Assembly (NCBI GenBank): GCA_964487665.1
Contig: CAZARR010000004.1
Coordinates: 816-64,815, forward strand
Direction: 5' to 3'
DNA: 64,000 nucleotides
From: an uncultured Pseudomonadales bacterium
GTDB lineage: Bacteria; Patescibacteriota; Microgenomatia; UBA1400; MFAQ01
The notes under the pieces are model-generated. The model made no database searches, had not been told where the DNA came from, and worked only from the letters and a program-made list of their open reading frames with translations. Position 1 is the stretch's first letter. Every line of letters begins with the position of its first letter. Below are positions 33,410-63,935 of the stretch, one piece after another. The translations under genes were made by a program, and so were the position numbers.

Positions 33410-36400
33410 GACAGTTAAATTTATAGATGTTTATACCTTGGTAGTCAAAGATATTGTCGAGGCAAATGTCACGGTAATTGACAGATAATTTGAGATGGTG
33501 AGGTAAATATACATAGCTTATGTTGTTGGTTGCGAGAAATTGGAGCATCCAAGTAGTATCCAAGGTGTTAAAAAAGCGTTGAATTTGCTTTAATCGAAGT
33601 GAATAATCGTAACCTGTTATGTCTAAATTAATAGTGTCTGCTAAATACTCTGGTTGCCCCGAAAATGCTGAGATGTATCCGGTTGATGAATATGCGTATA
33701 GTGGTTTTGGTGACGGGGGATCGGAAATAATTGAGCGGAGGAAACTATGGGGTGGTGATATGACAATCCCCCTTGGCTGGTTCTGAAGCATCTGCAGAGC
33801 TCTAAGTTCGCTATAGCTTATTCGTGAGGCGGATAGGTTGGTGAGATAGTCCTTGAGCGTACCGATTGTCGTAGGTGAGATAAGGGTGACCACAATTAGC
33901 ACAACGACGAACCGACGAAGACGACTGGGGTGTTGGAGCCACGAGGCGATGCTAGCTACGGCGAAAAGGCTAAGAAAAAATTGTGCATAGTAAAAGAACT
34001 GAATAGTGTTCCATGGGTTGGATTTTTGTACAAGTATGAGGGGGGTAATAATACCCGCTAAAACAATAATCGAGGTTAGGTTTTTGGTTGGATAGTTCTC
34101 TTTGCTAAGTGAAAACTGGATAAAACCAACTATTCTTGCACCCAGATTACCCAAGACAAATACTGTCAGCGCAAAGATGTTTATTATGGTTAGTTTTATC
34201 AGATCGCCATTAATTTCGTATGCTTGCCAAGCAGTGACTAGTTTTTGCCAGTTCAGATGGTCTTGAGCCGCAAACATACTTTTGTAAAACCAAAAAGGGT
34301 GGAAAATAAATGGTGAACTTGCTTGAGTAAGTAATGGAAACACTAGTAACAAACCAACAATGAAGACACCAATAAAAAGTTTGTAATTTTTTTGTAATAG
34401 TAGGGCAAGTGCTAATAGTAAAAAACTATAAAACTTAATTTGGGCAAGCAAACCCCCGAGCAGAATTAATACGAGAGTTCGTCTGGAGGTGAGTGGTTGC
34501 ACTTTGCTTCGCTCTAGTAAGATAAGAAATATCAAGATAAAGACAATGGATAATGCAAAAGGGGGGTTTAGCAGAATGGATATTGATTGATTAGACCAAA
34601 AAACTGATTCTCCTGAAAACACCGAACGTCCTGATATTAAAGCTGGGATAAAGCCCAGTGATCCTGTTAAGAAACAGCCAATAATGCTTAGAGTAATGGC
34701 TTGGTCGGAATAATTCCACAAGCGGAGGAGCTTGATTAAAAGAATAATTATCAGGGTAGTTGTGGTTATCGGGATTATTCGAAAGTATAAATCCAAGGGT
34801 TGGATGTGGGAAAAGCGGCTAATAATAGCAAGAAGGTAATCGAATCCCAAGTGATAACTTTGCAATAGGTGACCTGAAATCATCGGGTTAAGAAAGTTGG
34901 TTAGGGATTGCCGAAATGAGGAAATTAGCGAAAGGTGAAAGATGGCATCGTGCCCATTGGGACCCCAGAAACCCATTCCAAACACATACAGCTGGCCACT
35001 CCTAAACATTGTAAGTAGAACCAAAAACTCAGTAACAATACCTGTGGCGAATACTAACATTGAGGAAAAAGGGTTTTTTCGAAACTGATATGCGATAGAT
35101 AGGATAGCAAGTGCGATTAGGATGGTTACAACAATGGTGTTTTTATTGGTGTTGGCGTATGGAAGTTGGGGTCGAATTTGCCAAACAGTACCATGTTTTG
35201 TTTTGACTGTTTTAACATCTGGTAATTTGACCTGGGGCACTTGAAGATTAAGAAGTTCTATTTCTTGCGGTTTTAGAATAATTTGTTTTTGTTGATCAGC
35301 TAAAGTCACTACCCAACTATTTTCTAAGGTTTTGAATTCTGTGATACCAAATCCAAGTGATATGACGGAACTGGGATATTTGACAGAGTCAATGGCTGCA
35401 TAGTTTTCGGCTAGAAGTTGTTGCGAATAATTCGGAGATAAATAATTATCCTCGGCCTCCTTTTGATTAAAGATCCGTAAATCAATAATTTGGGTATCGT
35501 TTGGTGTCGATCGTAGACCGATTCGATAAAATGAATTTTGATACCAAATTAACTCGCCATTTTGGTTACCTGTGACATCGGGGGAGCGATACATAAACGA
35601 CGGTGAAGATTCTGGGTAAAAGGAACGGAACCAATGACCGAAATTTGAAAGTGATATTGGGGTGAGCTCGTACTCTTTGCTTTTTTCACTGATAAGTTGG
35701 TAGGTGTTTATGATTTCTTGGTGGTAGTGGTTTGGAGATAAGCTATTATCTAAACCAACGATAATTTGGGAAAACTCATTATATGAATGGTCGCTGTATA
35801 TTTTTAACAGTCTATCTAAATATCTAGTATCGAGACCAGAACTAAGATAATCGTTTGCCTGAAGAGAGTAGCCATTGTCTTGGTAATTTGTATAGAAGTT
35901 AAATGGATCGCGCACAGCCCATTTGACAATCGGAAGTGGCAACCTGTTTTTACTTGAGGATGCCGGTATCAGAGTGTTTGTTTGGGATGGGTAATAGGGA
36001 CTGGCCAAGTAGGAACCCCAAAGACGGTAGTCACTGCCTAAAAATTGTTCGTCATGGACAGCGGCAGCAGTCACGGCGTAGTTATCGGTAAGGTATTTAA
36101 GGGAAAAACTATCAATGTACCAAGCGCCAACTGTTTGCGGGAAAAAACCAAAACGTTGGTAAAATTGATTCATATATGAATCAATTAGTTTTATTCGGTC
36201 GGCCTGATCATAATCGGCAAGCGATATTGACCTTGGTTGCTTGAGAAATTCTCCCGGGGGAAATTTTACAGTCGCAAGGGACGAAAGATTTGGGGTAATC
36301 TCGAGATAGGCCCCCACTGACTGGGACGAGTCTGAGGAAATTATTTTTTTGAAAAAGCTTGAAATTGCTTGATCGGAAATGGCGTCATAACGGAGTAGCC

Positions 36401-36608
36401 ATGTGATTGGAAGGGCTGACGGCGTTGATTCCTGATATTGTAACCTGGGCAGGTCAAGGGGGGTGTGTGTTTTTTCTTGACCCCAGCCTTCCCAGCCACT
36501 AACAGGGTTAACAATAGAAACAAAAGTTTGTCTTTCGAAAGATCTGACCGGAAAAAATACACCTGATAGTAAAAACATGACGATGAAGAGTGGCACAATC
36601 TTATGCAC
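33399..36608 (-). CDS. Large fusion protein: N-terminal extracytoplasmic domain (~500 aa) plus C-terminal 'GHD' family polytopic membrane domain
   Basis: 1069 aa. It has an N-terminal signal/TM segment. Its C-half motifs FWGPNGHDAIFHLSLISSF...NPMISGHLL.SYHLGFD...LDLYFRIIPI and LLNPPF are homologous to 16798..18798. Confidence 0.5.
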   Translation of the reverse strand: MHKIVPLFIVMFLLSGVFFPVRSFERQTFVSIVNPVSGWEGWGQEKTHTPLDLPRLQYQESTPSALPITWLLRYDAISDQAISSFFKKIISSDSSQSVGAYLEITPNLSSLATVKFPPGEFLKQPRSISLADYDQADRIKLIDSYMNQFYQRFGFFPQTVGAWYIDSFSLKYLTDNYAVTAAAVHDEQFLGSDYRLWGSYLASPYYPSQTNTLIPASSSKNRLPLPIVKWAVRDPFNFYTNYQDNGYSLQANDYLSSGLDTRYLDRLLKIYSDHSYNEFSQIIVGLDNSLSPNHYHQEIINTYQLISEKSKEYELTPISLSNFGHWFRSFYPESSPSFMYRSPDVTGNQNGELIWYQNSFYRIGLRSTPNDTQIIDLRIFNQKEAEDNYLSPNYSQQLLAENYAAIDSVKYPSSVISLGFGITEFKTLENSWVVTLADQQKQIILKPQEIELLNLQVPQVKLPDVKTVKTKHGTVWQIRPQLPYANTNKNTIVVTILIALAILSIAYQFRKNPFSSMLVFATGIVTEFLVLLTMFRSGQLYVFGMGFWGPNGHDAIFHLSLISSFRQSLTNFLNPMISGHLLQSYHLGFDYLLAIISRFSHIQPLDLYFRIIPITTTTLIIILLIKLLRLWNYSDQAITLSIIGCFLTGSLGFIPALISGRSVFSGESVFWSNQSISILLNPPFALSIVFILIFLILLERSKVQPLTSRRTLVLILLGGLLAQIKFYSFLLLALALLLQKNYKLFIGVFIVGLLLVFPLLTQASSPFIFHPFWFYKSMFAAQDHLNWQKLVTAWQAYEINGDLIKLTIINIFALTVFVLGNLGARIVGFIQFSLSKENYPTKNLTSIIVLAGIITPLILVQKSNPWNTIQFFYYAQFFLSLFAVASIASWLQHPSRLRRFVVVLIVVTLISPTTIGTLKDYLTNLSASRISYSELRALQMLQNQPRGIVISPPHSFLRSIISDPPSPKPLYAYSSTGYISAFSGQPEYLADTINLDITGYDYSLRLKQIQRFFNTLDTTWMLQFLATNNISYVYLPHHLKLSVNYRDICLDNIFDYQGINIYKFNCHEQ

Positions 36609-38061
36609 GATCGGGAAGAAAATGGTTAATTGTGGTTAAAAAAATTGCTTTTCCCTCAAGTAGGTAGACCATAAAGAGGTAGGTTAGTACTCCGCCAGTC
36701 GAAATACACATGAACAGAGGGAGGGTTGTGGCATAGGGTCTAAGAATCAAAAGATATAGTCCTAGGGCGGTTGAAGCGATTGTCGGAGTACCCAGTGATC
36801 GATAGACACCAAACCCGATCATTCTTTTGATGACCATAATAACCGCAAGGGATGATAAGGCGATAAGTCCGACTGAGTAACTTACTCCCAGATAACCCCA
36901 TTTAATGGCAAAAATTGGCATCAATACCCAGGTCAAGACTGTCCACATAACCATAAGTTTGAACGTCGTTTTTATTTTCCCTATGGCGTTAAGGGCATTG
37001 GTCATCATAGTTGAAATGCTAGCCCAAGCCGCATTAAAGAGATAAAGGTAGAGAGGTGTGACGGCAGGGAGCCATTTGGTATAGTTTGGGATGAGATAAA
37101 TTAGTGGAATGATTAGAAAAGCCATGGCAGTAAAAATAGGAAACAATAGTAGAGTGAGATATTTAATACTAATTTCTATCGCTTTGGTAAGACGCGTGCG
37201 ATCGTGCTGCAATCTGGCGAACGTTGGAAAGGCGACTTTGGTTAGGTTGTCCATAAACATCCTCATGGGAAGCTCAGCGTTTCTTTTTGCCCAGCCGATG
37301 TAGCCAAGGCCATTTTGACCGATTAATTTACCAAGGACGATGGTCATACCGTCGTCCTTAATTACTGCCAAAAAGGTATTGATCTGATAAGGTATGCCGA
37401 ACTTAAGTAGGTGTGAAAGTGATTGTTTGCTAATTCCTAGAGATGGTTTCCATGGAGAAACAACATACATGGCAACGAGGCCGACAAATCCTCGGACAAG
37501 AACTGCAATTGTAAATGTCGTTATTCCCCAATGGTTCCAGGCCAAGTAAACAGCCACCAGGTTAAAGGAGAGTGTCTCTAGAACAACCGGTATGATTAAC
37601 TTATCGAACTGGATGTTACGCTCTAAAATAACTGATGGAATGGTTTTGAATGAACTAAGCAGCAGAGACACACCCATCGCCCAGAGAAGGTAAACGCCAG
37701 CGGGGTCTATTCCAAAAAACAGTTTGATGGTAGGTGTGAATATAAAGAGTAGTAGTATCAAAATAGCCACAAGAATCTGCTGAACTGTAAACGTGGTACG
37801 TAGATCATCGGATGTTAACGACTCCTTTTTTTGAATCAGTGCACCAGCCAGACCAATGTCGGAAAAGTAAGCTAAAAAGTTTACTACTGAGCCGACAAGG
37901 TAATACACCCCATAAGTACTAGGGTTAAGAAAAACTGATAGAACGAACTGGGAAACAAGGGCGATGATCTGAACGATAAACGAGCGTGAGACTAAGGCCA
38001 CAAACCCAACTATTGCGCGTCTTTTAATCTCGGTTATATCAATTTGCGAGGCTTGTGGCAC
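36601..38061 (-). CDS. Wzx-like oligosaccharide flippase (MOP/polysaccharide biosynthesis protein family)
   Basis: 486 aa with about 14 TM helices. The N-terminus KRRAIVGFVALVSRSFIVQIIALVSQFVLSVFLNPSTYGVYYLVGSVVNFLAYFSDIGLAGALIQ is typical of the Polysacc_synt family. Confidence 0.65.
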   Translation of the reverse strand: MPQASQIDITEIKRRAIVGFVALVSRSFIVQIIALVSQFVLSVFLNPSTYGVYYLVGSVVNFLAYFSDIGLAGALIQKKESLTSDDLRTTFTVQQILVAILILLLFIFTPTIKLFFGIDPAGVYLLWAMGVSLLLSSFKTIPSVILERNIQFDKLIIPVVLETLSFNLVAVYLAWNHWGITTFTIAVLVRGFVGLVAMYVVSPWKPSLGISKQSLSHLLKFGIPYQINTFLAVIKDDGMTIVLGKLIGQNGLGYIGWAKRNAELPMRMFMDNLTKVAFPTFARLQHDRTRLTKAIEISIKYLTLLLFPIFTAMAFLIIPLIYLIPNYTKWLPAVTPLYLYLFNAAWASISTMMTNALNAIGKIKTTFKLMVMWTVLTWVLMPIFAIKWGYLGVSYSVGLIALSSLAVIMVIKRMIGFGVYRSLGTPTIASTALGLYLLILRPYATTLPLFMCISTGGVLTYLFMVYLLEGKAIFLTTINHFLPDRA

Positions 38062-39761
38062 AGTGAAATTGTAGCATTAGATTTGGTATGGGCCACAAAG
38101 CTGATCGCGGTAATAACGATAGATATCAAACTAATTATGTTGGCATATCGACGCAAAGGTGTGTCTGCATATATAGCCCTAATTTGATGGGTACCTTGGG
38201 GAATTGTGAAACTTATAGCGCCAATCTGACTAAGAAAGACTGGAGTATTTTGACCGTCGACTAAAATTTTCCACCCGGGATAATAGAAACTGTTGAATGT
38301 GGCGGTTGTGTTCGACGGTGTAGTTGTCAATACAAGATAGTCCAGCGGATTTTCTCTGATCTGGGTAACCAGTGCTCCGGGCAAGGGAACCTCAATTTTA
38401 GATGTCGGCATACTATCCGGTCTGATCGCATTTAAAGGGAGTGGATAATAGTTTTCTGTGTAATCAAGATATTCGGACGATACATTTTCATTTGAGTGGA
38501 TAATTTGATTGGGTAAATAACGACGGAGATAATAATCATCATTACGATTAACCCGCTCACCAACCTGAAAATAGTGAATGTTTACTGCAATAATTGATAA
38601 AGCAATTAGTAGGGCCAGGATTGGTCTTTTTACAAACATAGGAGTGGAAGAGACTAGTAGAAAAATCAGAGTTGTCAGAAAAGTAGTCGACATAAGCAAT
38701 CTCCAAGGAAACTGGATCGAATCAGTAAAGGGAAAGATTTGCCAAAGAAAAGCAGATCTGGTGTTCATAAGAAAAATAGTTGCAAAAAAGAACAAAAGAG
38801 CAAAAAGTAAAAAAAGATAAAAATTGTTTTGCCTTACTTTCCATGTTTTCGAGCGAAATATTGTAAAAATCCCTACAGCCACAAAAAGTAAATTGAAAGC
38901 GCCAATTTGAAATGACATTTGATCATCCGGTCCCCAATGAGACGATCCGTACCCCCACGCTGAGTAAATTAATTGTTTGACAAAAGGGAACTGATCGTAG
39001 AAATTAAACGGGGCTACTTTTTGTATGAAATGTTGTTCAAGAATAACTGGGAGTAAGTAGAAGGCGGAGAGTCCCGCAGATAAGATGGGTACGGCCAATA
39101 GTTTCTTTATTGCTCTGGTATTTTTCTCCATAGCTGCCGTTAGAAAGACAATGCCAAATATTACTGGGGCTACAAAAACCGTGGCAGGTTGGTGGGTAAT
39201 TATTAGTAGGGCACAAAAAATCGATGATAAAAAGACATCTCGATTCATATTATGTCTTAATATTCGAAAAAGGTAGTGAAATAACCAGGGGAAAAGTGCG
39301 ATGGCAGCAGATTCACCGATAGTTCCCCGGACATAAATATCGACGGCCCGATAGGGCGTGTAGGTATAAAGTACAGAGGCGGCTAGGGCATAAACTGGAG
39401 TGGCCATCGTTAACCCAAGAATATACATACCTAGTGCTCCAACGACTACTGAAATCAGCAGGATAATTTTGTAGGTGTCTACCAAGGTGAAACCGAGATG
39501 TTTGATGAGGTAGCCAAGATAGTACGGGAGCTGATAGTTAAATTCTGGATAGGGCGAGCCATATGTAAAATGCATATCGGGTGCCCACCGTGGTGGAAAT
39601 TGGCCTAAATCCATTACTTTGATAAATTGATGGAGGTTGGCGATTTGGGTCTCGTCATGAAAAGTAAAAAACCCTGGGTGGACGAGAGGAACAATCGAAG
39701 GGATTGTCAGCAAAAGAGTGGCTAACAAACAGATAAGTTTATTTTTGCGGGTTTCTTTCAT
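38034..39761 (-). CDS. Polytopic membrane protein, family A (PTPS-related-like), tandem copy 3
   Basis: HPGFFTFHDETQIANLHQFIKVMDLGQFPPRWAPDMHFTYGSPYPEFNYQLPYYLGY; 575 aa with a C-terminal extracytoplasmic domain. Confidence 0.5.
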   Translation of the reverse strand: MKETRKNKLICLLATLLLTIPSIVPLVHPGFFTFHDETQIANLHQFIKVMDLGQFPPRWAPDMHFTYGSPYPEFNYQLPYYLGYLIKHLGFTLVDTYKIILLISVVVGALGMYILGLTMATPVYALAASVLYTYTPYRAVDIYVRGTIGESAAIALFPWLFHYLFRILRHNMNRDVFLSSIFCALLIITHQPATVFVAPVIFGIVFLTAAMEKNTRAIKKLLAVPILSAGLSAFYLLPVILEQHFIQKVAPFNFYDQFPFVKQLIYSAWGYGSSHWGPDDQMSFQIGAFNLLFVAVGIFTIFRSKTWKVRQNNFYLFLLFALLFFFATIFLMNTRSAFLWQIFPFTDSIQFPWRLLMSTTFLTTLIFLLVSSTPMFVKRPILALLIALSIIAVNIHYFQVGERVNRNDDYYLRRYLPNQIIHSNENVSSEYLDYTENYYPLPLNAIRPDSMPTSKIEVPLPGALVTQIRENPLDYLVLTTTPSNTTATFNSFYYPGWKILVDGQNTPVFLSQIGAISFTIPQGTHQIRAIYADTPLRRYANIISLISIVITAISFVAHTKSNATISLCHKPRKLI

Positions 39762-41412
39762 TTGATATCACCACCCAGCTAATCAATGTGGCAGCACTAA
39801 TAAATGTGAGAAGGTTGGCTAATTGTCTAATTGGGGTATTTTCAAACCAGGCTTGAACTAGCTGTGGTCCTTTCCCAAGTTTAATAGTAATCAATCCGAG
39901 ATCATTATCAGTAGATATATCAACAGGCTTGGATTGTCCATTGATGTATACATGCCATCCGGGAAAATACATCACCGGGAATTCAACGGTGGCATCAATT
40001 GAGTAAACTTCTATTTCGCTAGCAAAATAATTCGATCTTTTGACAAATTTTTGCACATGTCCACCCCCCGTTTTCGTGGTGGGATTATCAGGGGCGAATT
40101 TTATGGGGGGGTTTTTGACGGTACGGGGAAGATAATCCAGTAAACCGCCTGCACTTTGGGTGACGAAAGAATCACCGGTAAGAATGTCCCGATCGGTTGT
40201 GGTAGGTAAATAGTCTCGAAAGCGGAAATGGTTGAAGCTTGGAAAGATTAATAGTGCGATAACCATCGAAAGAATAATCTTCTTTTGTTTAAAGTTGATC
40301 GAATCAAATGATAAACCTATTAAAAATGAGGTTCCGATGGCGACGAGGGCAAGAAACCTCCATGGAAATTGTGCATACGATAATAGTGGTAAGTTTTTCC
40401 ACAATGGCCACGATCGTCCATGGGTCATAAATAAACTTGCGAAAGTTAGGAATAAAAAGAAGATACTGATGGCGAATTTTTCTTTTTCATACTTTTTTAT
40501 CTGCCAGATAATTAAAATGGGTGAAAACACCAAAGTTATTAATGGGATAAGTCCAATAAAAAATGATAGCCCATCGATTGGACCGGACCGAGATGGACCA
40601 TACCCCCAGTAAAAGTCGAACAAAAGTTGTTTGATAGTTGCGAAGTGAATGAATACATTGAAGTAACCCTTGGTAAGGCGTTCGGACTGTATGAGGCTTG
40701 TCTCAAAAAATGCCGGGATAACAAAGAACGACGATAAACCAAAAGCAAGAACAAAAGCCGCCAAAAGGTATTTTAGAAGATTGGTATTTTTCTTGTGGTG
40801 GATAAATTGAATGATAGTGAAAATAATAATAAAAGGCGCGCATAATAGCGAAGTGATGTTGTGCGTAGCGAGAAATATCGCTAATGAAATAGCGCTACCC
40901 GCTGTATGGGTAACGGTGGCTTGTTTCACCAGTTTGGTTATTGAATAAAGAACAAGGGGGAATAAAGCCATTCCCCATAATTCGGCCAGAGCCCCGCGAA
41001 CAAAGACGTTGAGGATGTGATATGGCGCAACGATGTACGCCAAAGCAGCGATAAGGCTAGCCATCCTGCCTAGGTAATTTTTAAATAGTAGGTAAGCAAA
41101 ATACCCCGAGAAAAATATTGGAAGAAAGAACAATATCTTGACCGCATCCACGTACGATACCCCGAGCACGGTGAACACAGCCCCTAGATAGTATGGGAAA
41201 GCCGAGTAAAAGTTGAACATTGGCTGTCCATAACCCAATCCCATATCGGGTGACCAACGACAGGGAATTTGGCCATCTGCAAGACACTTGTTCATCTGGA
41301 AGAGACGCATTACGTGTAAGTCATCCTGAACCCAAAAGTATCCAGGCCTAAACAGCTGCCAACCGACAAGAAACGAAAAAACTAAGAGAATGACGAGGTC
41401 AACTTTCCGCAT
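39739..41412 (-). CDS. Polytopic membrane protein, family A, tandem copy 2
   Basis: RPGYFWVQDDLHVMRLFQMNKCLADGQIPCRWSPDMGLGYGQPMFNFYSAFPYYLGA. It overlaps the next gene by 23 nt. Confidence 0.5.
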   Translation of the reverse strand: MRKVDLVILLVFSFLVGWQLFRPGYFWVQDDLHVMRLFQMNKCLADGQIPCRWSPDMGLGYGQPMFNFYSAFPYYLGAVFTVLGVSYVDAVKILFFLPIFFSGYFAYLLFKNYLGRMASLIAALAYIVAPYHILNVFVRGALAELWGMALFPLVLYSITKLVKQATVTHTAGSAISLAIFLATHNITSLLCAPFIIIFTIIQFIHHKKNTNLLKYLLAAFVLAFGLSSFFVIPAFFETSLIQSERLTKGYFNVFIHFATIKQLLFDFYWGYGPSRSGPIDGLSFFIGLIPLITLVFSPILIIWQIKKYEKEKFAISIFFLFLTFASLFMTHGRSWPLWKNLPLLSYAQFPWRFLALVAIGTSFLIGLSFDSINFKQKKIILSMVIALLIFPSFNHFRFRDYLPTTTDRDILTGDSFVTQSAGGLLDYLPRTVKNPPIKFAPDNPTTKTGGGHVQKFVKRSNYFASEIEVYSIDATVEFPVMYFPGWHVYINGQSKPVDISTDNDLGLITIKLGKGPQLVQAWFENTPIRQLANLLTFISAATLISWVVISNERNPQK

Positions 41413-43075
41413 GCTTTGGTTTGTATAGAAACACTAATACTACTGCTGTTAGCCCCATAAAGGTTAGAAAGTTGCCAAATGTTCTGATGGGGGTGTTTTG
41501 AAGTCTTAGAACAACTTCGTTGGTACCTGCTGGCAAGATAAAGGTGGTTAAACCTAACTCGTTGTTGTGGTTGTGAATTGTCTTTTTACCGTTGGTCCAC
41601 ACCGTCCACCCAGGAAAGTCAAACTGGGGAACTCTAATTGTGGAGGGTTTTTGTGAAATAGCGCTAAAGGAAATTAAATTTGATTTTTTTGTATAGCGAA
41701 GAATCTGAGTGTCACCAGAAATAACTTCCGGAGAAATTGGAGCGACAAAAACAGGTGGGAATTTGGCGTAAATTGGCAAGTAATCGAAAATGCTGATAGT
41801 CATTTGTTTGTCCCACTGCTGACCTGATAGCTTTTCTTGCTGGGTGGTCTCGATCCAATAGTCTGGTCTGAAAAACGCAGCATTAGTGAGAAAGACAATT
41901 GAAATAACTGTCAGTAATAGATATTTACCAACGTTTTTTTGTAATGTAACAAACGGAAAGCCACAGGCAAGGGAGAAAAAGAAAGTTGATAGGGTTAAAA
42001 AACGCCAGGGGAACTGGAGATACTTTAAAACGCCAACACGTTGCCAGATAAAAGACGATTTTGAGTGGGTCATATACAGCGAAATGAGCCCGATTAATAC
42101 AAGGGTAAATCCTAAAATTACGGTCGGTCGCTCGTTTCGTGACCGGAGACGGGAGAGGGCGATAGTAACAGTTACTACCAATAGTAAGAGTGTAACCGGA
42201 CTGGTAAAGAAAGAGAGCTCATCGGTTGGACCGAGTACCGATGATCCCCGCCCCCAAAAACTAGTAAAGAATAACTGATTGATATTAATAAAATGAGCTA
42301 AATAATTGAAGTACCCGCTGATCATGCTTTCGGTGTGGGCGTATTGTTGTTCGAAAACCACGGGTAAAAAGAAGAAGCCGGCAATGGCAACGGACCAAAG
42401 CGTTCCTGATAAATGTAGTAAGATTTTCTTCTTGATTAAGGGTCTGTCCTTAGACAAGATGATGTTTACAAAGACAAAAATGGATGCCAGAGGTAAAAAA
42501 ATTAAACTGGTGATGTTATGAGAACATAATAAACAAGCTAAACTGATAGCAAAGAAGGCGACGTCTTTGGTTTTTTGTTTGGAAATAATTCTTTGTGAAA
42601 AATAGAGAATCAGCGGCATAAACATAAACGCCCAAGTTTCACCCATTGCCCCACGGGAATAGACATCTGATGCCCTATAGGGAGCATATATATACATAGC
42701 TGCAGATAGCAGACCTCCCATTTTGCCCCACATTTTCCGGGCTAAAAAGTACATAAATAGGCCACTTAGCAGCAATGGGGTAACAAACCCAAGTTTTACT
42801 GAATCAAGAAAGTTTAGTCCTAATAGGTGACTGACCTCCATGTAATAATATGGCAGGGGGCCATAGTAGTTGAACTGTGGATAACCGTATCCATAGCCCA
42901 TATCGGGGACCCATCGGCAGGGTATTTGAAGATCACTAAAACACTTGTCCATTTGATAAACCCGCATCACTTGCATGTTGTCATGCATCGGAAAGAAACC
43001 CGGTCTAAGAAGTGACGAAAAAGTGGGAATGGAAAGAAAGATGACGAGAAAGTAAGGCAAATAACGAGTAAACAT
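41399..43075 (-). CDS. Polytopic membrane protein, family A, tandem copy 1
   Basis: RPGFFPMHDNMQVMRVYQMDKCFSDLQIPCRWVPDMGYGYGYPQFNYYGPLPYYYME. The start is moved to the internal ATG at 43075 because the track start at 43144 overlaps the upstream gene by 68 nt. Confidence 0.5.
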   Translation of the reverse strand: MFTRYLPYFLVIFLSIPTFSSLLRPGFFPMHDNMQVMRVYQMDKCFSDLQIPCRWVPDMGYGYGYPQFNYYGPLPYYYMEVSHLLGLNFLDSVKLGFVTPLLLSGLFMYFLARKMWGKMGGLLSAAMYIYAPYRASDVYSRGAMGETWAFMFMPLILYFSQRIISKQKTKDVAFFAISLACLLCSHNITSLIFLPLASIFVFVNIILSKDRPLIKKKILLHLSGTLWSVAIAGFFFLPVVFEQQYAHTESMISGYFNYLAHFININQLFFTSFWGRGSSVLGPTDELSFFTSPVTLLLLVVTVTIALSRLRSRNERPTVILGFTLVLIGLISLYMTHSKSSFIWQRVGVLKYLQFPWRFLTLSTFFFSLACGFPFVTLQKNVGKYLLLTVISIVFLTNAAFFRPDYWIETTQQEKLSGQQWDKQMTISIFDYLPIYAKFPPVFVAPISPEVISGDTQILRYTKKSNLISFSAISQKPSTIRVPQFDFPGWTVWTNGKKTIHNHNNELGLTTFILPAGTNEVVLRLQNTPIRTFGNFLTFMGLTAVVLVFLYKPKHAES

Positions 43076-43076
43076 T

Positions 43077-44570
43077 TTACAGAAGAGTGTAGAGTTGAAG
43101 AGCCTCTCTTGTCCCGTCCGGTCTGGCAGCCTTGGGGTATTCATTGATTAGACGTAATTTGTGTAAAGATGAATCGTCGAGAAGGTTGCGTGATTTATTT
43201 AGCAACAAATATATGTCATTTTCGCTCGAAGTATTGAGAAGTGCGGTCGGGATTGACCGAACAGGCTGGCCGATACCGATAATAATAATATTGCGGATTC
43301 CTTCGGTATATATTTGCAACCCATCGGGTAGAGTCCCAAAATATCCTTCTGTACCAATAACGATTCTTTTCCCTTTGGCTGATTCATTTATTAAGTACTT
43401 TGCCACTTGTTTTTGGCCAGTGCCAGCCGTCCATTCTTCAAAATAACCACTACGCATATCCCGACTCATGGGACTTTTTTCGGGAATATATATATAACCC
43501 AAACTTAATAATAAGGGCCAGGTAAAGATTAGAGTGATAAGAATAACATTAAATCGTTTGGGAATATTCGATGCGCTAAGTGCTGCGGTAACAAATAGTG
43601 CTGGGGTAATAAACAAGATATACCTAGAGGTGTAAACCTTGGCTATTGAGGCCTGAATAACTAATGGCAAAAAAGCGATTGCCATCAATGCAAGGGTGGT
43701 TTTGGCTTTGTACAACCATGGTGAAATCAGTACAAATATTAATATCGGAGGAGTAAGCAATAACCACAGCCAGTTGATGCTGGTAAGAAGATTGCCCCTA
43801 AAGGGGTTCAGAGGGTGATGAAGTACTTCGCTAAAACTAAAAAGATAGTCCTGGTTTCGAGAATTGATCATATGAAACGCAGGTCCCAGACGTAGAATGT
43901 TGAACATCGCCTGGGATATTACAAAAGCAACCAGCCAGCCGCCAATAATCTTGAGATAGTCGTATTTTTGGTAAGATCTGTGTTCGAGATGGTAATAAAG
44001 GGCCAAAATTGGTTGCCAAAGATAGAAGAATATTGCTGGGGATTTGGTAAGCAAACCACCTCCAATGGCAAAGCCTAACAGCATGGCCATATCTAAGCGT
44101 TTGGTGCGGACAAAAAGCAATCCTAGAACCAAAGACCACACCCCAAACATGCACAAGAGGCTATCTACTAAGGCCATACGGTCAAAAAAGACGGTAAAGG
44201 GGGATACGGCATAAAGACTGGCGGCCAGTAGTGATGTAACAAGCTTTTTTGAAAGTAAGAATGTTAACAGGCTAGTTCCCACTAGCGTCCCTAACCCCGA
44301 TATCGTGGACAGTGACCTACCAGCGATTAGCGGATCAGAAAAGATTTTGAACATTGGTATAGTCAACCACATAAATAGTGGCTGTTTGCCATCGGTCTGA
44401 GGAAGAAACCGCAATGTGGCCTCGTTCTTCATAACCTGTGACCAGCGGACATATATGGCTTCGTCGACAAAAACTGGAATCTTGTCTATGTTAACCAATC
44501 TCAAATAGCAGAAAACGAGAAAGGTGGTGACAAATAGTGCAAGGGTCCAATATTTAGACAAGCTTTTCAT
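43077..44570 (-). CDS. ArnT/PMT-like GT-C glycosyltransferase
   Basis: LVNIDKIPVFVDEAIYVRWSQVM is an ArnT-type DEaxY motif. It is polytopic with a C-terminal periplasmic domain. The start is taken at MKSLSKYW (44570), and the track start at 44624 is the alternative. Confidence 0.55.
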   Translation of the reverse strand: MKSLSKYWTLALFVTTFLVFCYLRLVNIDKIPVFVDEAIYVRWSQVMKNEATLRFLPQTDGKQPLFMWLTIPMFKIFSDPLIAGRSLSTISGLGTLVGTSLLTFLLSKKLVTSLLAASLYAVSPFTVFFDRMALVDSLLCMFGVWSLVLGLLFVRTKRLDMAMLLGFAIGGGLLTKSPAIFFYLWQPILALYYHLEHRSYQKYDYLKIIGGWLVAFVISQAMFNILRLGPAFHMINSRNQDYLFSFSEVLHHPLNPFRGNLLTSINWLWLLLTPPILIFVLISPWLYKAKTTLALMAIAFLPLVIQASIAKVYTSRYILFITPALFVTAALSASNIPKRFNVILITLIFTWPLLLSLGYIYIPEKSPMSRDMRSGYFEEWTAGTGQKQVAKYLINESAKGKRIVIGTEGYFGTLPDGLQIYTEGIRNIIIIGIGQPVRSIPTALLNTSSENDIYLLLNKSRNLLDDSSLHKLRLINEYPKAARPDGTREALQLYTLL

Positions 44571-45315
44571 ACTTGCCTTGTATATCCAAAAGCTTAACTC
44601 TCGATATTTGTTTGAGCATATCAAGAGATTCCTTGATAAATTTACGGGATTTGCTTGAAGAAGTGTCCTCGTTTCGCCATTCTACGGGCACTTCTTTTAT
44701 TTTTCCTCCCATTTTTTCGATCATAAACAAAAGCTCTACATCAAATGCGCTCACAACCCAGCCCGTCACTTTTTTGTTCGATGAAAAATTACCAAGTTTT
44801 GGGAATATTTTTTTTAGAATATCTGATTGATATAATTTGAAGCCGCACTGAGTGTCAACAATATCTCCTAACAATAGGGAGCGCCTAAAAAGAATGAAAA
44901 TATTTGAAGCGATTCGTCGAAATATTGTTGATGCCTCTCGCTGACGTCCCCGAGAGCCGATAATTGCAGCATACCCTTGGTCAATATATGACATAAGTTT
45001 ATCAATTTCAGAAAATGGGGTCGATTGGTCCATGTCGGTGGTAAGAATATACTTGCCTGTGGCGGCAGAGATACCAACCTTTAACCCTCCGGCTTTGCCG
45101 ATATGTTCGTTTTCGAGAACAATTAACCGGGGTTCATTTTTAGCGTATTCCCTAATAAATTCTCTACTGCCATCGGTGGAGTTGTCCTCGCAAATAATAA
45201 CTTCGTAAGAATATTTCTTTTGCCTCAAGTAGTCAAAAACTTGGTCTAAAACTCCTCTTTTTAGGTTTTCTAGTTCGTTGTAATTGGGTATGACAACTGA
45301 CAACAGCGGCTGCAT
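44554..45315 (-). CDS. Glycosyltransferase family 2, DPM1/polyprenyl-phosphate glycosyltransferase-like
   Basis: LSVVIPNYNELENL...VIICEDNSTDGSREFI...ILTTDMDQSTP; 253 aa and soluble. It lies directly upstream of the ArnT-like gene, an ArnC/ArnT-like pairing. Confidence 0.8.
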   Translation of the reverse strand: MQPLLSVVIPNYNELENLKRGVLDQVFDYLRQKKYSYEVIICEDNSTDGSREFIREYAKNEPRLIVLENEHIGKAGGLKVGISAATGKYILTTDMDQSTPFSEIDKLMSYIDQGYAAIIGSRGRQREASTIFRRIASNIFILFRRSLLLGDIVDTQCGFKLYQSDILKKIFPKLGNFSSNKKVTGWVVSAFDVELLFMIEKMGGKIKEVPVEWRNEDTSSSKSRKFIKESLDMLKQISRVKLLDIQGKYEKLV

Positions 45316-45323
45316 AAGGAGAA

Positions 45324-46313
45324 TTATAACTTGTTTTGCCTTTTGAGTTGCTCGATGCAGGCAACAAACCTGTCTTCCAAATGGTGCATACTTCCCCGAA
45401 ATAAGAAAGAGGCTGAGGCGGCGTGGCCACCTCCACCAAAAATATGGGCCACCTGAGATACGTCAACAGACGGATCCCGGCTCCTAAGAGATACCTTGAT
45501 GTACTCGGGGTCTTTTTCGACCATAATTGCCCCAAACTTGGTGTTTTGAATTTTTCCGGCAAATTTGTTAGCTATTATTCCAGTACCCGGAGACAGGCCA
45601 ATCTTAAGGTAATCTGGGTAGGTAAATTTCATCCAAGCATAATCACCAGAAGGTGACAATTTGAGCGATTGGAGACAAACACCCCAGGCTAAATAATCTT
45701 TTTGAGTAAAGTTTTTTTCTAATTGAGTCTGGCAGAAATTATAATTTGCGCCAGATTTAATCAGTTTGGCCGAAATTTGAAGGGTTGTGGCTGTAGTGTT
45801 TGTGTTGGCAAATGTACTGGTGTCAGAAATTATTCCTGAGAGCAAACAAGTGGCGATGTCTGAGGATAGATGAATATCAAGATTGGGGAGTAGGCGTGCG
45901 ATCATTTCGCAGGTGGAGGAATAATTTGGATCGACCCAACTGAAGTTTGATCTAATCTTGCTGTCGGGATGATGATCAATGTTAATAAGATGATTTTTAT
46001 CCAATTTCGGTGTGGTGCTACGAGAAACTAAATTCCAATTGGCAGTGTCCAAACTGAGGTAGCATCGATACGGATACGAGAGGGCTGTTTGAAGAGAAAT
46101 GGTTTCGATTGAATCTGCCCAAGGTATAAAAGTCATGCCATGAGGAATTGTGTCCTCACAAAATACTTGGACGGTTTTGCCAATCGATTCAAGGGCAATT
46201 TTTAATGCCAAGGCAGAGCCGATCGAGTCCGGATCGGGACCGAGGTGTACGTGGCAAAGAAAGGAATCTGTGGTATGAATTAATTTAATAATTGAATTTG
46301 GAGGAGTTGTCAT
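45324..46313 (-). CDS. DHH-family phosphoesterase (NrnA-like nanoRNase/pAp phosphatase)
   Basis: CHVHLGPDPDSIGSALAL (DHH motif I), LINIDHHPD (the DHH motif) and the GGGHAASASF DHHA1 glycine motif. The start is at the internal ATG 46313, giving an ATGA overlap with the upstream stop; the track's N-terminal extension is discarded. Confidence 0.7.
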   Translation of the reverse strand: MTTPPNSIIKLIHTTDSFLCHVHLGPDPDSIGSALALKIALESIGKTVQVFCEDTIPHGMTFIPWADSIETISLQTALSYPYRCYLSLDTANWNLVSRSTTPKLDKNHLINIDHHPDSKIRSNFSWVDPNYSSTCEMIARLLPNLDIHLSSDIATCLLSGIISDTSTFANTNTTATTLQISAKLIKSGANYNFCQTQLEKNFTQKDYLAWGVCLQSLKLSPSGDYAWMKFTYPDYLKIGLSPGTGIIANKFAGKIQNTKFGAIMVEKDPEYIKVSLRSRDPSVDVSQVAHIFGGGGHAASASFLFRGSMHHLEDRFVACIEQLKRQNKL

Positions 46314-47788
46314 TGTGAATGTATAAGTCGGTAGATGGAAATGTAATCGATTTGCCATTTCTCTACTACCTTCGCCGGTCCAAAAACTGCAATTTGCCAT
46401 TGGGAATTTCCCTCTGGTTGGCAGGTGTCACCGTCTTCGCACACAACAAATAGTTGGTCCGTAATACCATTCTCACCTCTGATTAATTTGGCTTTTTCAT
46501 TCTCGAAAAAATAACGGTACGACTCGTCGTAATTCTGTTTGGCTATTAGGCCGAAGTTAAAAGGGCGATCGTTTGATTTGTCTCTGATAAGTTCGGTAAC
46601 GGCCCTGGTCCGCCAAAGCAACCGGTTTGGCGACTGAAATAATGGGTTGTTAGCAATGTTGATAATAGTCAAGCTAAATAACCCCAGACCGCCAATAAGT
46701 TTTAGAAATAGCCTGGATTTTCTAATAAAAAAGCTTACGGATATTCCAATTAGTAGGAAATATGCAGGGTAGCTCATTCCAAAGTAATGCGAGTAGATCG
46801 GTTGATGATAGAACGCCAAACCAAAAATAGGAGCTAAACTCCAGATGTATAGAATCGAATATTGTAACTGATGTCTATGGCGAAAAACGTGCGCAATGGT
46901 GATAAGAAACAGAATTACAAGAATTGCTGGGTAAATTGTTAGTGGCCTGTAAAAAAGATAAACTGTAAGTTTTTCTAACATCTGCGCTAGATGTTGAGGT
47001 GAGGGTATTGCAAAGTTGGATTGATCTTTGACAGAAAAAAATGTGCTAAGACTATGCAGGTTGAGGAAGTTATGTTTGATATCATAAAGTAACAGAGGTA
47101 TTTGAAATACAAAAAAGACTAGTAAAGCGCTGATGGTGTGATCAAAAAGTTTGTTTTTGGAATTTTTAGACAGTATTAGTTCTCGTACCCAGATAAATAA
47201 GAACAGTGGTAGTAAAAATACGGCCAAGTAATGTAACTGAATAGCTAAGCCAAAAAGTGCAGCCGATATCAGCAAGTATACTTTTCTGGAGGATTTTGCG
47301 TATTTGTAAATAAACCAGGTCACCAGTAACGAGGCTAGAGGTAACGGGTTAGGATTCCAAGAAAAGGTAGACGTTTTTATCGTCAGTGGTGAGGTGGCGT
47401 AAAGAAATGCACCAATAAGTGCCGCCATTTGGCCAAACCATACTCTTCCTATTAGCCAAATTAGGAATACAGTAGCAACTGAAAGCAAAGCAACGATAAT
47501 AGCTGGGCCAGAAGGATCTGATGAAATAAATAGTGATGGAGCGATAAGGTAGTAATAGAATGGTCCAAGATAAGCATTGCCCACACTTGTTTGCGGTCCA
47601 ATGAATACTAGGTTTCCTTTTAATAGGTCGCGAACAACCCTCATATCCCTGCCTTGATCGCCTAAAAAGATTAGGTAGTCGTTGATGCGATACAAACGCA
47701 AGAAGGCGGAAATAATTACCACAAAAGCTATCAGAAAAAGTTCCCGTTTATTTGATCTGACCCAGGCGGTTATTTTAGCTTGCGCCAT
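46310..47788 (-). CDS. Polytopic membrane protein, family B paralog
   Basis: IFLGDQGRDMRVVRDLLKGNLVFIGPQTSVGNAYLGPFYYYLI; 492 aa. It is immediately downstream of a DPM1-like GT2. Confidence 0.5.
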   Translation of the reverse strand: MAQAKITAWVRSNKRELFLIAFVVIISAFLRLYRINDYLIFLGDQGRDMRVVRDLLKGNLVFIGPQTSVGNAYLGPFYYYLIAPSLFISSDPSGPAIIVALLSVATVFLIWLIGRVWFGQMAALIGAFLYATSPLTIKTSTFSWNPNPLPLASLLVTWFIYKYAKSSRKVYLLISAALFGLAIQLHYLAVFLLPLFLFIWVRELILSKNSKNKLFDHTISALLVFFVFQIPLLLYDIKHNFLNLHSLSTFFSVKDQSNFAIPSPQHLAQMLEKLTVYLFYRPLTIYPAILVILFLITIAHVFRHRHQLQYSILYIWSLAPIFGLAFYHQPIYSHYFGMSYPAYFLLIGISVSFFIRKSRLFLKLIGGLGLFSLTIINIANNPLFQSPNRLLWRTRAVTELIRDKSNDRPFNFGLIAKQNYDESYRYFFENEKAKLIRGENGITDQLFVVCEDGDTCQPEGNSQWQIAVFGPAKVVEKWQIDYISIYRLIHSQ

Positions 47789-50832: not shown

Positions 50833-50908
50833 GAGATGAAGTATAGCAAAAGATTGTTCGAAATATTGATACATTAATCTCAGTATTCTGTTATAAAATC
50901 ACTGCATA

Positions 50909-63599: not shown

Positions 63600-63935
63600 C
63601 TAGGTTGCTCTAGGTTCGAGAAGACGCCTTGGCTTCGTGCTAGGGAGGAAAGTCCGGACAGCAAAAAGAAAGAGTGACCCGGGAAACGGGGTTTCTCTCG
63701 GAGTGATTCGAGGGACACGATAGGGCCACAGAGACGAATAAGGTGAAACGGTATTGATTGCAATGTCAATACGCCTTAACTAGGTAACTAGATAAGGTCG
63801 GTAACCCGCCTCGCTGCAACCTCTGACCTGAGTAGTTTGGGTTTCTTTTCCCAGCCTCTTGATTGGGGCCTACTCTAAAATTGAGGGCACAGATAGATGT
63901 CTTCTTTGAAACAGAATCCGGCTTACGAGACCTGG
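63600..63935 (+). ncRNA. rnpB: RNase P RNA (bacterial, type A-like)
   Basis: The universal motifs are present: GGAAAGTCCGGAC (P4 5' strand), AAGGTGAAACGGT (P10-P11 junction) and ACAGAATCCGGCTTAC (P4 3' strand). The 5' CTAGGTTCGAG and 3' GAGACCTGG can form P1. The ends are approximate and the 3' end may extend. Confidence 0.75.

What the first reader, a model, noticed from the sequence alone, without database searches (positions are those of the whole stretch)
38034..43144. Three tandem, translationally overlapping paralogs of an uncharacterised ~570 aa membrane family (plus a fourth copy at 6317..7981)
The four proteins share a sharply conserved N-terminal motif: P-G-F/Y-F-x-x-H/Q-D, then H/Q-x-x-R, then G-Q/D-hP-x-RW-x-PD-M-x-x-GYG-x-P-x-FNYY-x-PLPYY. 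An N-terminal acidic HD/DD that faces the periplasm is what a GT-C catalytic loop looks like, and a ~150 aa C-terminal periplasmic domain is also present. The tandem copies overlap by 23 and 14 nt, so they are co-translated. The domains have diverged, which argues for distinct specificities rather than simple duplication. The family is only tentatively equated with the Pfam 'PTPS-related' membrane proteins.
Basis: seen in the sequence. Interest (0 to 1): 0.6.

Follow-up and report, generated by a model that had tools for sequence, protein, structure and literature searches.

The report
Tandem GT-C membrane glycosyltransferase paralogs
The four ~560-residue membrane proteins are real paralogs of an already catalogued but biochemically untested family of membrane glycosyltransferases (Pfam PF10131, GT-C clan), and they sit in a large surface-sugar gene cluster that is conserved across Microgenomates (candidate phyla radiation) bacteria, so this is a solid but fairly ordinary annotation.

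Summary
Three head-to-tail minus-strand genes, A 38034..39761, B 39739..41412 and C 41399..43144, overlap by 23 and 14 nt. A fourth copy, D, lies at 6317..7981. They are 25-36% identical. All four pass the Pfam PF10131 (PTPS_related) threshold, and that family is already in the GT-C clan.

An AlphaFold2 model of B (pLDDT 94) matches only GT-C enzymes in the PDB: AglB, PglB, STT3, AftD, AftA, Emb, Pmt4 and ArnT. The N-terminal motif is conserved in 144 relatives (Asp30 in 142 of 144; Arg52, His184 and Arg352 in all). By topology it lies outside the membrane.

The array occupies a fixed slot in a Microgenomates operon: GT2, PMT_2, 1-4 PF10131 genes, Wzx, a 1069-aa deacetylase-like/GT-C fusion, three GT2, GT4. 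Position in the array tracks clade, so the triplication is old.

In other genomes, GT2 domains are fused to PF10131 proteins. One of these domains is 39% identical to the ArnC/GtrB/DPMS-like GT2 at 44554..45315.

The most likely function is transfer of sugar from a polyprenyl-phosphate-sugar donor to an acceptor outside the membrane. Donor and acceptor are unknown.

Corrections: C probably starts at 43075, and gene overlaps run through the whole 16-gene operon.

The parts
41399..43144 (-). Paralog C, the first gene of the array. It is a PF10131 GT-C protein. The longest ORF is 581 aa, but the probable true start is ATG at 43075 (558 aa). It belongs to the 'position-1' clade, which is the copy present in genomes that have only one.
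   Evidence: ORF. Pfam PF10131 37.8 bits. Start codon. Clade.
39739..41412 (-). Paralog B, the second gene of the array (557 aa). This is the protein that was modelled. Its start overlaps the end of C by 14 nt.
   Evidence: (54.3 bits). AF2 model pLDDT 94.2. Foldseek GT-C hits.
38034..39761 (-). Paralog A, the third gene of the array (575 aa). Its start overlaps the end of B by 23 nt. It belongs to the 'position-3' clade, which lacks the Cys pair in loop 1 (Cys51 replaced by Pro) and has Asn in place of His331.
   Evidence: (45.8 bits).
6317..7981 (-). Paralog D, the solitary fourth copy (554 aa, GTG start). It lies directly downstream of a GT2 gene (7962..8840) and a PMT_2 GT-C gene (8827..10479). 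Its own orthologs, at 38-41% identity, occur in Daviesbacteria and relatives.
   Evidence: (32.5 bits).
41155..41349 (-). First extracytoplasmic loop (EL1) of B, residues 22-86, which carries the conserved motif PGYF-x-x-[HQ]-D30-D ... GQIP-C-R52-W-x-P-D56 ... G62-x-P. The Asp30 codon is 41323..41325. Asp30 is the putative catalytic acid.
   Evidence: Conservation in 144 sequences: D30 142/144, P50 and R52 144/144, D56 139/144, G62 143/144. Outside location. EL1 is the most conserved region among the four paralogs, at 41% identity.
40552..40704 (-). Second conserved extracytoplasmic loop of B, residues 237-287, containing Glu237, His256, Trp269-Gly270, Gly272 and Ser274.
   Evidence: (40% identity among the paralogs).
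40357..40368 (-). The F-P-W-R352 segment of the conserved Q-F-P-W-R motif (Gln348 immediately precedes it), at the outer end of a transmembrane helix. Arg352 is invariant and is a candidate binder of the donor phosphate; that role is inferred.
   Evidence: Q348, P350 and R352 are 100% conserved in 144 sequences. Topology.
39754..40227 (-). C-terminal extracytoplasmic domain of B (residues 396-526, beta-sandwich at 445-523) plus the terminal transmembrane anchor (527-553). This is one of the least conserved parts (C-domain 24% identity among the paralogs, similar to TM8-11 at 22%) and the presumed acceptor-binding part.
   Evidence: Secondary structure. Regional identity. Weak YfhO C-terminal match in A (E 0.0045).
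44554..45315 (-). GT2 glycosyltransferase (253 aa), two genes upstream of the array. It is the candidate synthase of the polyprenyl-phosphate-sugar donor.
   Evidence: Pfam GT2. Closest solved relatives are ArnC, GtrB (sll0501) and DPMS. It is 39% identical over its full length to the GT2 domain of the GT2+PF10131 fusion protein P0254 (E 2e-59).
43077..44624 (-). PMT_2-type GT-C protein immediately upstream of C. Its likely start is 44570 (497 aa). It is the upstream neighbour of the array in 26 of 42 complete loci.
36601..38061 (-). Wzx-type flippase (Polysacc_synt_3), immediately downstream of A and overlapping it by 28 nt. It is the downstream neighbour of the array in 28 of 42 loci.
33399..36608 (-). 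1069-aa protein that always follows Wzx. Its N-terminal extracytoplasmic part is a DUF3863 glycoside-hydrolase/deacetylase-like domain, and its C-terminal part is a GT-C membrane module.
   Evidence: AF2 pLDDT 87.2. Foldseek: 3lm3 at E 1.3e-11, then STT3, DPY19, PglB, AftA. Synteny.

Best explanation
A, B, C and D are catalytically competent GT-C-fold membrane glycosyltransferases of the PF10131 ('PTPS_related') family. Within GT-C their closest relatives are the YfhO-type enzymes.

Proposed mechanism:
1. A cytoplasmic GT2 enzyme loads a sugar onto polyprenyl phosphate. The candidate is the ArnC/GtrB/DPMS-like gene at 44554..45315.
2. The lipid-linked sugar is flipped to the outer face of the membrane.
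3. Each PF10131 protein transfers that sugar to an acceptor outside the membrane. It uses the invariant Asp30 in loop 1 together with conserved residues that face outwards (Arg52, Asp56, Arg139, Glu144, His184, Glu237, Arg352).

The acceptor is most likely the glycan that is built by the downstream GT2/GT4 genes and exported by the adjacent Wzx. The three tandem copies are an old triplication. They share the catalytic loops and differ mainly in the TM8-11 region and the C-terminal beta-sandwich domain, so they probably make different linkages or act on different acceptor positions in sequence.

What is shown: paralogy, family membership, fold, motif conservation, topology, synteny and the fusions. 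What is inferred: the donor type, the acceptor and the order of action.
For: - Family: all four copies are above the Pfam gathering score.
- Fold: AF2 model with pLDDT 94.2 and pTM 0.93. Its top 34 Foldseek PDB hits are all GT-C enzymes: AglB 2.3e-5, PglB, STT3, AftD (TMq 0.45-0.47, rmsd 5.4-5.9 A), AftA, Emb, Pmt4, ArnT, ALG3, DPY19.
- Profile links: to the PMT_2 family at 89.7% probability, E 1.9e-6. To the window's YfhO-like protein at 82.7% probability, E 9.4e-6, with the N-terminal motif aligned.
- Conserved positions: every loop position that is at least 90% conserved falls on the outside. Inside loops are short and rich in Lys/Arg (24% against 8.5%).
- Motif conservation in 144 relatives.
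- Donor link: the upstream GT2 resembles ArnC, GtrB and DPMS. Five independent 821-832-aa cluster representatives are GT2+PF10131 fusions. One of their GT2 domains is 39% identical to the window GT2 at 44554.
- Synteny: the order GT2 / PMT_2 / PF10131 x1-4 / Wzx / 1069-aa protein / GT2 x3 / GT4 is conserved at only 35-60% protein identity across Collier-, Woese-, Davies-, Shapiro-, Ames- and Blackburnbacteria.
- Age of the duplication: array position equals clade.
- Precedent: three-component GT2 / flippase / GT-C systems are reviewed in PMC8035078.
Against: - No member of PF10131 has been tested biochemically in the literature I could search.
- The best Foldseek E-values are to oligosaccharyltransferases, which use pyrophosphate-linked oligosaccharide donors, not monophosphate-linked single sugars.
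- TM-scores are modest (0.38-0.47).
- The number of PF10131 copies per locus does not correlate with the number of synthase-like GT2 genes (rho 0.15, p 0.33). The paralogs therefore do not each bring their own donor synthase.
- There is no stand-alone GtrA-type flippase in the operon. The only GtrA domain is fused to the GT2 at 49654..50874.
- Four of the five fusion GT2 domains resemble the window GT2 at 31581 more than the one at 44554, and only at 26-30% identity.
Confidence: 0.65

Rival explanations
1. The PF10131 proteins are oligosaccharyltransferases or ligases. They would take the complete polyprenyl-pyrophosphate-linked oligosaccharide flipped by the adjacent Wzx and transfer it as a block to a surface protein or cell-wall acceptor. 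The paralogs would serve different acceptors.
For: - The best Foldseek hits are AglB, PglB and STT3.
- The array lies directly upstream of Wzx in 28 of 42 loci.
- Copy number does not depend on the number of monosaccharide-donor synthases.
- One relative carries C-terminal TPR repeats, as protein-modifying GT-Cs do (P0353).
Against: - None of the four has a WWD motif, and there is no Pfam STT3 hit at E <= 0.01.
- The C-terminal domain is a small beta-sandwich with a terminal TM helix, as in YfhO, not the STT3-type domain.
- The nearest sequence families are YfhO and PMT_2, whose characterised members use monophosphate-linked sugars.
- Direct fusions to GT2 domains, one of them ArnC/GtrB/DPMS-like, point to a single-sugar donor.
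- The 1069-aa GT-C protein that always follows Wzx is the better candidate for block transfer.
Confidence: 0.15
2. The proteins are backbone-building transferases that act repeatedly, like the mycobacterial Emb and Aft arabinosyltransferases. They would assemble a polymer outside the membrane from one polyprenyl-phosphate sugar, with each paralog making a different linkage. On this reading they do not decorate a pre-made Wzx-exported glycan.
For: - AftD gives the best superposition (TMq 0.45-0.47, rmsd 5.4-5.9 A), and AftA and Emb are also hits.
- Six GT-C genes sit in one operon, and at least 15 GT-C-like genes lie in the window.
- The paralogs appear to share rather than multiply donor synthases.
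Against: - The operon also encodes a full cytoplasmic assembly set (three GT2, one GT4, Wzx). That set argues for a lipid-linked repeat unit as the main product.
- Nothing in the sequence separates repeated from single transfer.
Confidence: 0.15
3. One or more copies are inactive relics or non-enzymatic membrane scaffolds left over from duplication. A related idea is that the family is linked to pterin metabolism, as its name suggests.
For: - Tandem duplicates often decay.
- The family name mentions 6-pyruvoyl-tetrahydropterin synthase.
Against: - All four copies keep every family-invariant residue: D30, R52, P130, P152, H184, E237, Q348, R352.
- Each array position is kept as its own clade across distant genomes.
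- The Pfam match covers only the membrane region, and no soluble PTPS domain is found.
- The neighbourhood is purely glycan-related.
Confidence: 0.03

Closest known systems
[quoted passage not shown]
   Same: All four proteins match above the gathering threshold. [quoted passage not shown] The family is listed among the GT-C clan members (PMC7801869).
   Different: Nothing differs at family level. The Pfam model covers only about positions 1-320 of its 621, so the second half of these proteins and the C-terminal domain are not described by it. The family's function is listed as unknown.
YfhO-type GT-C glycosyltransferases (PF09586), such as CsbB/GtcA/YfhO, which add GlcNAc to teichoic acids in Bacillus, Staphylococcus and Listeria
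   Same: - The N-terminal motif aligns with a YfhO-like protein in the same window: GY-x-PF-x-x-D-L-L against PGYF-x-x-HDDL, and Q-W-P-L-W-N-P..GYP against GQIPCRW-x-PD..GYG-x-P.
- Both have a C-terminal beta-sandwich followed by a terminal TM helix.
- Both are genetically paired with a GT2 polyprenyl-phosphate-sugar synthase.
   Different: - The YfhO Pfam score is below threshold (15.8 against 28.5 bits, C-terminus only).
- These proteins are about 560 aa, whereas the YfhO model is 835 positions long.
- They occur in tandem arrays inside a Wzx-type operon.
- Their acceptor is unknown, and teichoic acids are not established in this lineage.
PMT_2 / GT39-like and ArnT-like GT-C enzymes
   Same: They share the TM2-TM6 core (hhalign 89.7%, E 1.9e-6). 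Pmt4 and ArnT are Foldseek hits. Paralog C gives a weak PMT_2 Pfam hit.
   Different: - The Pfam score is below threshold (21.5 against 26.1 bits).
- Loop 1 carries [HQ]-D-D with RW-x-PD, not the D-E motif seen in the window's own PMT_2 proteins (direct reading of the and translations).
- The C-terminal domain is different.
Mycobacterial arabinofuranosyltransferases AftD, AftA and Emb
   Same: AftD gives the best structural superposition. Several GT-C paralogs act on one extracytoplasmic glycan using lipid-monophosphate sugar donors (established knowledge of that pathway).
   Different: There is no detectable sequence-level membership; the only sign is a weak GT-C_AftD Pfam hit in B (18.3 against 26 bits). 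The large carbohydrate-binding C-terminal domains and the acyl-carrier-protein partner are absent.
Oligosaccharyltransferases PglB, AglB and STT3
   Same: They give the lowest Foldseek E-values. An acidic residue in the first external loop is shared.
   Different: There is no WWDYG-type motif, no STT3 Pfam hit and a different C-terminal domain.

Membership tests
Pfam PF10131 PTPS_related | Whole-protein HMM score at or above the curated gathering score (26.4 bits) | tested here: met
   A 45.8, B 54.3, C 37.8 and D 32.5 bits.
GT-C superfamily | GT-C fold: a polytopic membrane module that superposes on solved GT-C enzymes | tested here: met
GT-C superfamily | Conserved acidic (DxD or modified) motif in the first extracytoplasmic loop | tested here: met
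   Asp30 is present in 142 of 144 relatives and Asp31 in 121 of 144. The loop is placed outside by the positive-inside rule, by the Cys43/Cys51 pair and by the N-terminal cytoplasmic GT2 fusions.
GT-C superfamily | Uses a lipid-phosphate-linked sugar donor | not testable with these tools
   Only indirect support: an ArnC/GtrB/DPMS-like GT2 in the operon and GT2 fusions.
Three-component extracytoplasmic glycosylation system (GT2 synthase + small flippase + GT-C) | A polyprenyl-phosphate-sugar synthase of the GT2 type genetically linked to the GT-C gene | tested here: met
   The GT2 at 44554..45315 lies two genes upstream. It is conserved in that place across loci, and its type is fused to PF10131 in P0254.
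Three-component extracytoplasmic glycosylation system (GT2 synthase + small flippase + GT-C) | A dedicated GtrA-family (or equivalent) flippase | tested here: inconclusive
   The operon has no stand-alone GtrA gene. A GtrA_DPMS_TM domain is fused to the GT2 at 49654..50874. A 116-aa ORF with three predicted TM segments at 482..832 was not characterised.
YfhO family (PF09586) | HMM score at or above the gathering score (28.5 bits) | tested here: not met
   Only A gives a hit: 15.8 bits, on the C-terminal 50 residues. Profile comparison nevertheless shows a relationship.
PMT_2 / GT39-like (PF13231) | HMM score at or above the gathering score (26.1 bits) | tested here: not met
   C scores 21.5 bits and the others give no hit.
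Oligosaccharyltransferase STT3/PglB/AglB | WWDYG-type motif in the C-terminal domain, and an STT3 HMM match | tested here: not met
   No WWD in any of the four. No STT3 Pfam hit at E <= 0.01.

The most novel reading that the evidence does not exclude
The conserved Microgenomates operon encodes an assembly line for a lineage-specific cell-envelope glycopolymer that works largely outside the membrane. It has six GT-C enzymes: two PMT_2, one to four PF10131 and a deacetylase-like/GT-C fusion. On this reading the PF10131 trio acts as consecutive, linkage-specific transferases, loosely comparable to mycobacterial arabinan synthesis. Expansion of the PF10131 slot from one to four genes would then diversify the surface glycan between lineages.
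Probability: 0.3. Interest if true: 0.55.

Novelty: new member of a known kind. Interest (0 to 1): 0.3.

Why it matters
PF10131 is a large family: 20,406 clusters at 50% identity match at E <= 1e-3. I found no experimentally assigned function for it. Microgenomates are uncultivated, and the chemistry of their envelope is essentially unknown.

This work gives a concrete hypothesis that can be tested: a GT2-made polyprenyl-phosphate sugar is transferred by an Asp30-dependent GT-C enzyme. It also provides a conserved operon map, natural GT2 fusions that identify the likely donor synthase, and positional orthologs for choosing constructs.

It does not reveal a new kind of system. The fold, the clan assignment and the three-component logic are all established.

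Tried and rejected
- **PDB sequence search:** a profile search of PDB sequences with the family alignment found nothing significant. The best hit was a mannose-6-phosphate receptor at E 0.09 over 39 residues, which I dismissed as chance.
- **NCBIfam:** no family name for any of the seven proteins submitted (the four paralogs, the 1069-aa protein, the YfhO-like protein and the DUF6541-like protein at 16798..18798).
- **1069-aa protein against PF10131 or PMT_2:** hhalign was not significant (7.5% and 0.2%). Its GT-C nature came only from the structure model.
- **Source record:** it could not be named. Exact look-ups failed, and the best match among GTDB species representatives was only 45-46% identical.
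- **Disrupted B in the sister strain:** rejected. The 441-aa JGI call is a gene-calling artefact, because the ORF is intact at 557 aa.
- **Donor synthases:** I tested whether extra PF10131 copies come with extra donor-synthase genes. They do not (rho 0.15, p 0.33). The apparent drop in PMT_2 count with PF10131 count is an artefact of the fixed locus size.
- **Promoters and terminators:** scans over 28000..47999 were at chance level (45 against 49.2 +/- 6.9; 20 against 16.5 +/- 3.9).
- **Literature:** searches found no functional study of PF10131. Two Clostridium acetobutylicum papers only list such genes in expression tables. I recalled that archaeal AglS might be a relative, but could not check it, so I do not use it.
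Full report
**1. Observation**

The three minus-strand ORFs are present at 38034..39761 (A, 575 aa), 39739..41412 (B, 557 aa) and 41399..43144 (C, 581 aa as the longest ORF). The fourth is at 6317..7981 (D, 554 aa, GTG start). Reading the junctions shows that the ATG of B lies inside the last codons of C (14-nt overlap) and that the ATG of A lies inside the end of B (23-nt overlap).

The four proteins align over their full length, with 54 invariant columns. Pairwise BLASTP scores are 182-335 bits. B and C are 36% identical and the other pairs 26-31%. A family HMM finds exactly these four genes in the window (488-701 bits); the next ORF scores 9 bits. The paralogy is therefore real.

One coordinate needs correcting. 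An in-frame ATG at 43075 lies 1 nt after the TAA stop (43079..43077) of the upstream gene. Hardly any relatives have residues aligned to the 23 residues before it. A 98.5%-identical strain from a JGI metagenome is called at 558 aa. C therefore probably spans 41399..43075.

**2. Family and fold**

All four pass the Pfam gathering score for PF10131 'PTPS_related' (32.5-54.3 bits against 26.4). They give only sub-threshold hits to PMT_2, GT-C_AftD and the C-terminus of YfhO. NCBIfam gives no name.

PF10131 is already listed as one of the 19 members of the Pfam GT-C clan CL0111, with function unknown (PMC7801869).

An AlphaFold2 model of B, built on 64 sequences, has mean pLDDT 94.2 and pTM 0.93. 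A Foldseek search of the PDB returns only GT-C enzymes in the first 34 places:
- AglB (E 2.3e-5), PglB and yeast and human STT3;
- AftD (TMq 0.45-0.47, rmsd 5.4-5.9 A), AftA and EmbA/B/C;
- Pmt4, ArnT, ALG3 and DPY19.

Profile comparisons link the TM2-TM6 core to the window's PMT_2 family (89.7%, E 1.9e-6). They also link the N-terminal half, including the motif, to the window's YfhO-like protein at 24783..27098 (82.7%, E 9.4e-6). The GT-C reading of the first stage is confirmed, but it is not a new insight about the family.

**3. Anatomy**

The helices of the model give twelve membrane spans. Between them lie a 65-residue first external loop, a 51-residue external loop after TM7 and a 131-residue external C-terminal domain (beta-sandwich at 445-523). 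A final anchoring helix follows.

With the N-terminus inside, the cytoplasmic loops are 1-6 residues long and 24% Lys/Arg, against 8.5% for the external segments. Every loop position conserved in at least 90% of relatives is external.

In 144 relatives from 84 loci plus the window:
- Asp30 is present in 142.
- Pro50, Arg52, Pro130, Pro152, His184, Gln348, Pro350 and Arg352 are present in all.
- Arg139 and Glu144 are present in 99%, Glu237 in 97% and Asp56 in 139 of 144.
- A Cys43/Cys51 pair in loop 1 is present in 111 of 144 and is absent as a unit in the A clade. This fits an extracytoplasmic disulfide.

Among the four paralogs, the two catalytic loops are the most conserved regions (41% and 40% identity). 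TM8-11 (22%) and the C-terminal domain (24%) are the least conserved.

**4. Distribution**

The family is large. 20,406 50%-identity clusters match at E <= 1e-3 and 7,682 at E <= 1e-30.

The close relatives of B and D come from Microgenomates-type genomes: Collier-, Woese-, Davies-, Shapiro-, Ames-, Blackburn-, Curtiss- and Gottesmanbacteria. One more distant hit is from Anaerolineae. No GTDB species representative exceeds 46% identity to B, so the source lineage is not closely represented there.

**5. Context**

The window up to about 51 kb is one glycan region. It holds at least nine PMT_2 proteins, a YfhO-like protein, about ten GT2 genes, two GT4 genes and a Wzx gene.

The sixteen consecutive minus-strand genes from 48486 down to 27049 overlap or are at most 8 nt apart. 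Promoter-like and terminator-like sites are at chance frequency. The overlaps between the paralogs are therefore a property of the whole operon.

Comparison with 83 loci shows the same gene order at only 35-60% protein identity:
- GT2-GtrA fusion
- GT2
- PMT_2
- (DHH protein)
- GT2 (the 44554 type)
- PMT_2 (the 43077 type)
- PF10131 genes
- Wzx
- the 1069-aa protein
- three GT2
- GT4

The PF10131 slot holds one gene in 36 loci, two in 14, three in 24 and four in 9. The genes are always head to tail.

Clustering by identity sorts the sequences by array position:
- A position-1 clade of 58 sequences, containing window C and most of the single-copy genes.
- A position-2 clade of 37, containing B.
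- A position-3 clade of 27, containing A.
- A position-4 clade of 7.
- D stands apart and has its own orthologs.

The triplication is therefore old and each copy has been retained. This supports non-redundant roles. The clustering is UPGMA on identities, not a proper tree.

**6. Donor link**

The GT2 at 44554..45315 is closest among solved structures to ArnC, GtrB (sll0501) and dolichol-phosphate-mannose synthase. All three load a sugar onto a polyprenyl phosphate.

Five of the 150 best family representatives are 821-832-aa proteins with an N-terminal GT2 domain fused to a PF10131 body. In P0254, that GT2 domain is 39% identical over its full length to the window GT2 at 44554 (E 2e-59). The fusion also fixes the N-terminus of the GT-C body in the cytoplasm.

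Other fusions join PF10131 to PMT_2, to a second PF10131 or to TPR repeats.

**7. Mechanism and rivals**

The best-supported reading is the three-component logic known from GtrB/GtrA/Gtr-type and CsbB/GtcA/YfhO systems (PMC8035078). A GT2 makes a polyprenyl-phosphate sugar, the sugar is flipped, and the GT-C enzyme transfers it to an external acceptor. Here the acceptor is most plausibly the Wzx-exported glycan.

I put this at 0.65. The fold and family parts are near certain. The donor and acceptor parts are inferred.

The main rivals are:
- **Block transfer of the flipped oligosaccharide (0.15).** It is favoured by the oligosaccharyltransferase hits and the Wzx adjacency. It is disfavoured by the missing WWD motif, the YfhO-like C-terminus and the GT2 fusions.
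- **Aft/Emb-like backbone synthesis (0.15).**
- **Inactive copies or a pterin-related role (0.03).** This is effectively excluded by the conserved residues and the context.

PF10131 copy number does not track the number of synthase-like GT2 genes. This suggests that the paralogs share a donor and differ in acceptor or linkage.

**8. Verdict**

The finding is correct and well observed. It describes members of a catalogued GT-C family in a typical, if unusually GT-C-rich, candidate-phyla-radiation glycan operon.

What this second look adds is the conserved operon map, the positional orthology, the GT2 fusions and the corrected start of C. I rate the novelty as 'new member of a known kind' and the interest as 0.3.

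Noticed in passing
window 33399..36608 (-): The window copy of this 1069-aa protein has no Pfam hit. Modelled at pLDDT 87, its N-terminal extracytoplasmic part is a DUF3863 glycoside-hydrolase/deacetylase-like domain (3lm3, E 1.3e-11) fused to a GT-C membrane module (STT3, DPY19, PglB, AftA hits). It always follows Wzx in the conserved Microgenomates cluster and has an invariant G-x-x-G-H-D-x-x-x-H segment. It is a candidate block transferase or ligase of unusual architecture.
   Followed up: partly
proteins P0247, P0250, P0254, P0262, P0303 (one search list): These are natural fusions of a cytoplasmic GT2 domain to a PF10131 GT-C body (821-832 aa). Other fusions are PF10131+PMT_2 (P0273, P0360), PF10131+PF10131 (P0231, 1093 aa) and PF10131+TPR (P0353). 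There are also very long entries with 4-6 family matches (P0236 3329 aa, P0251 1670 aa, P0373 1337 aa). Those may be real multi-domain proteins or gene-calling read-throughs.
   Followed up: partly
window 48486..27049 (-): Sixteen consecutive genes on one strand overlap or have gaps of at most 8 nt. They form one very long putative operon of about 21 kb that encodes six GT-C proteins.
   Followed up: partly
window 45324..46400 (-): A DHH/DHHA1 phosphoesterase gene sits inside the glycan operon and recurs at the same place in many related loci. Its role in a glycosylation cluster is unexplained.
   Followed up: no
window 30463..31584 (-) and 27049..28587 (-): Two polytopic membrane proteins (373 aa and 512 aa, about 8 predicted TM segments each) lie among the cytoplasmic glycosyltransferase genes and have no Pfam hit. 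The 373-aa one matched an ORF in only one of the compared loci. They are possible Wzy-like polymerases.
   Followed up: no
window 24783..27098 (+): A 771-aa YfhO-like protein. Its Pfam match covers only the C-terminal 80 residues, but profile comparison shows that it shares the N-terminal motif with the PF10131 paralogs.
   Followed up: partly
window 63608..63941 (+): Bacterial RNase P RNA, class A (113 bits, E 7e-34). No tRNA genes were found in the window.
   Followed up: no
loci L008-L011, L013, L017, L018 and others: Many public MAG records that carry this Microgenomates-type cluster are titled 'uncultured Gammaproteobacteria' or 'Pseudomonadales'. Some have chromosomes of about 0.5-0.6 Mb. 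These titles look like taxonomic mislabels.
   Followed up: no
L084 9653..11326 (JGI 3300013121 Ga0172278_1680): A 98.5%-identical strain has the same gene order. Its ortholog of B is annotated as only 441 aa, but the full 557-aa ORF is intact, so the short call is an artefact.
   Followed up: yes
window 482..832 (-): A 116-aa ORF with three predicted TM segments lies next to the GT2 gene at 873..1544. It could be a small flippase-like partner.
   Followed up: no
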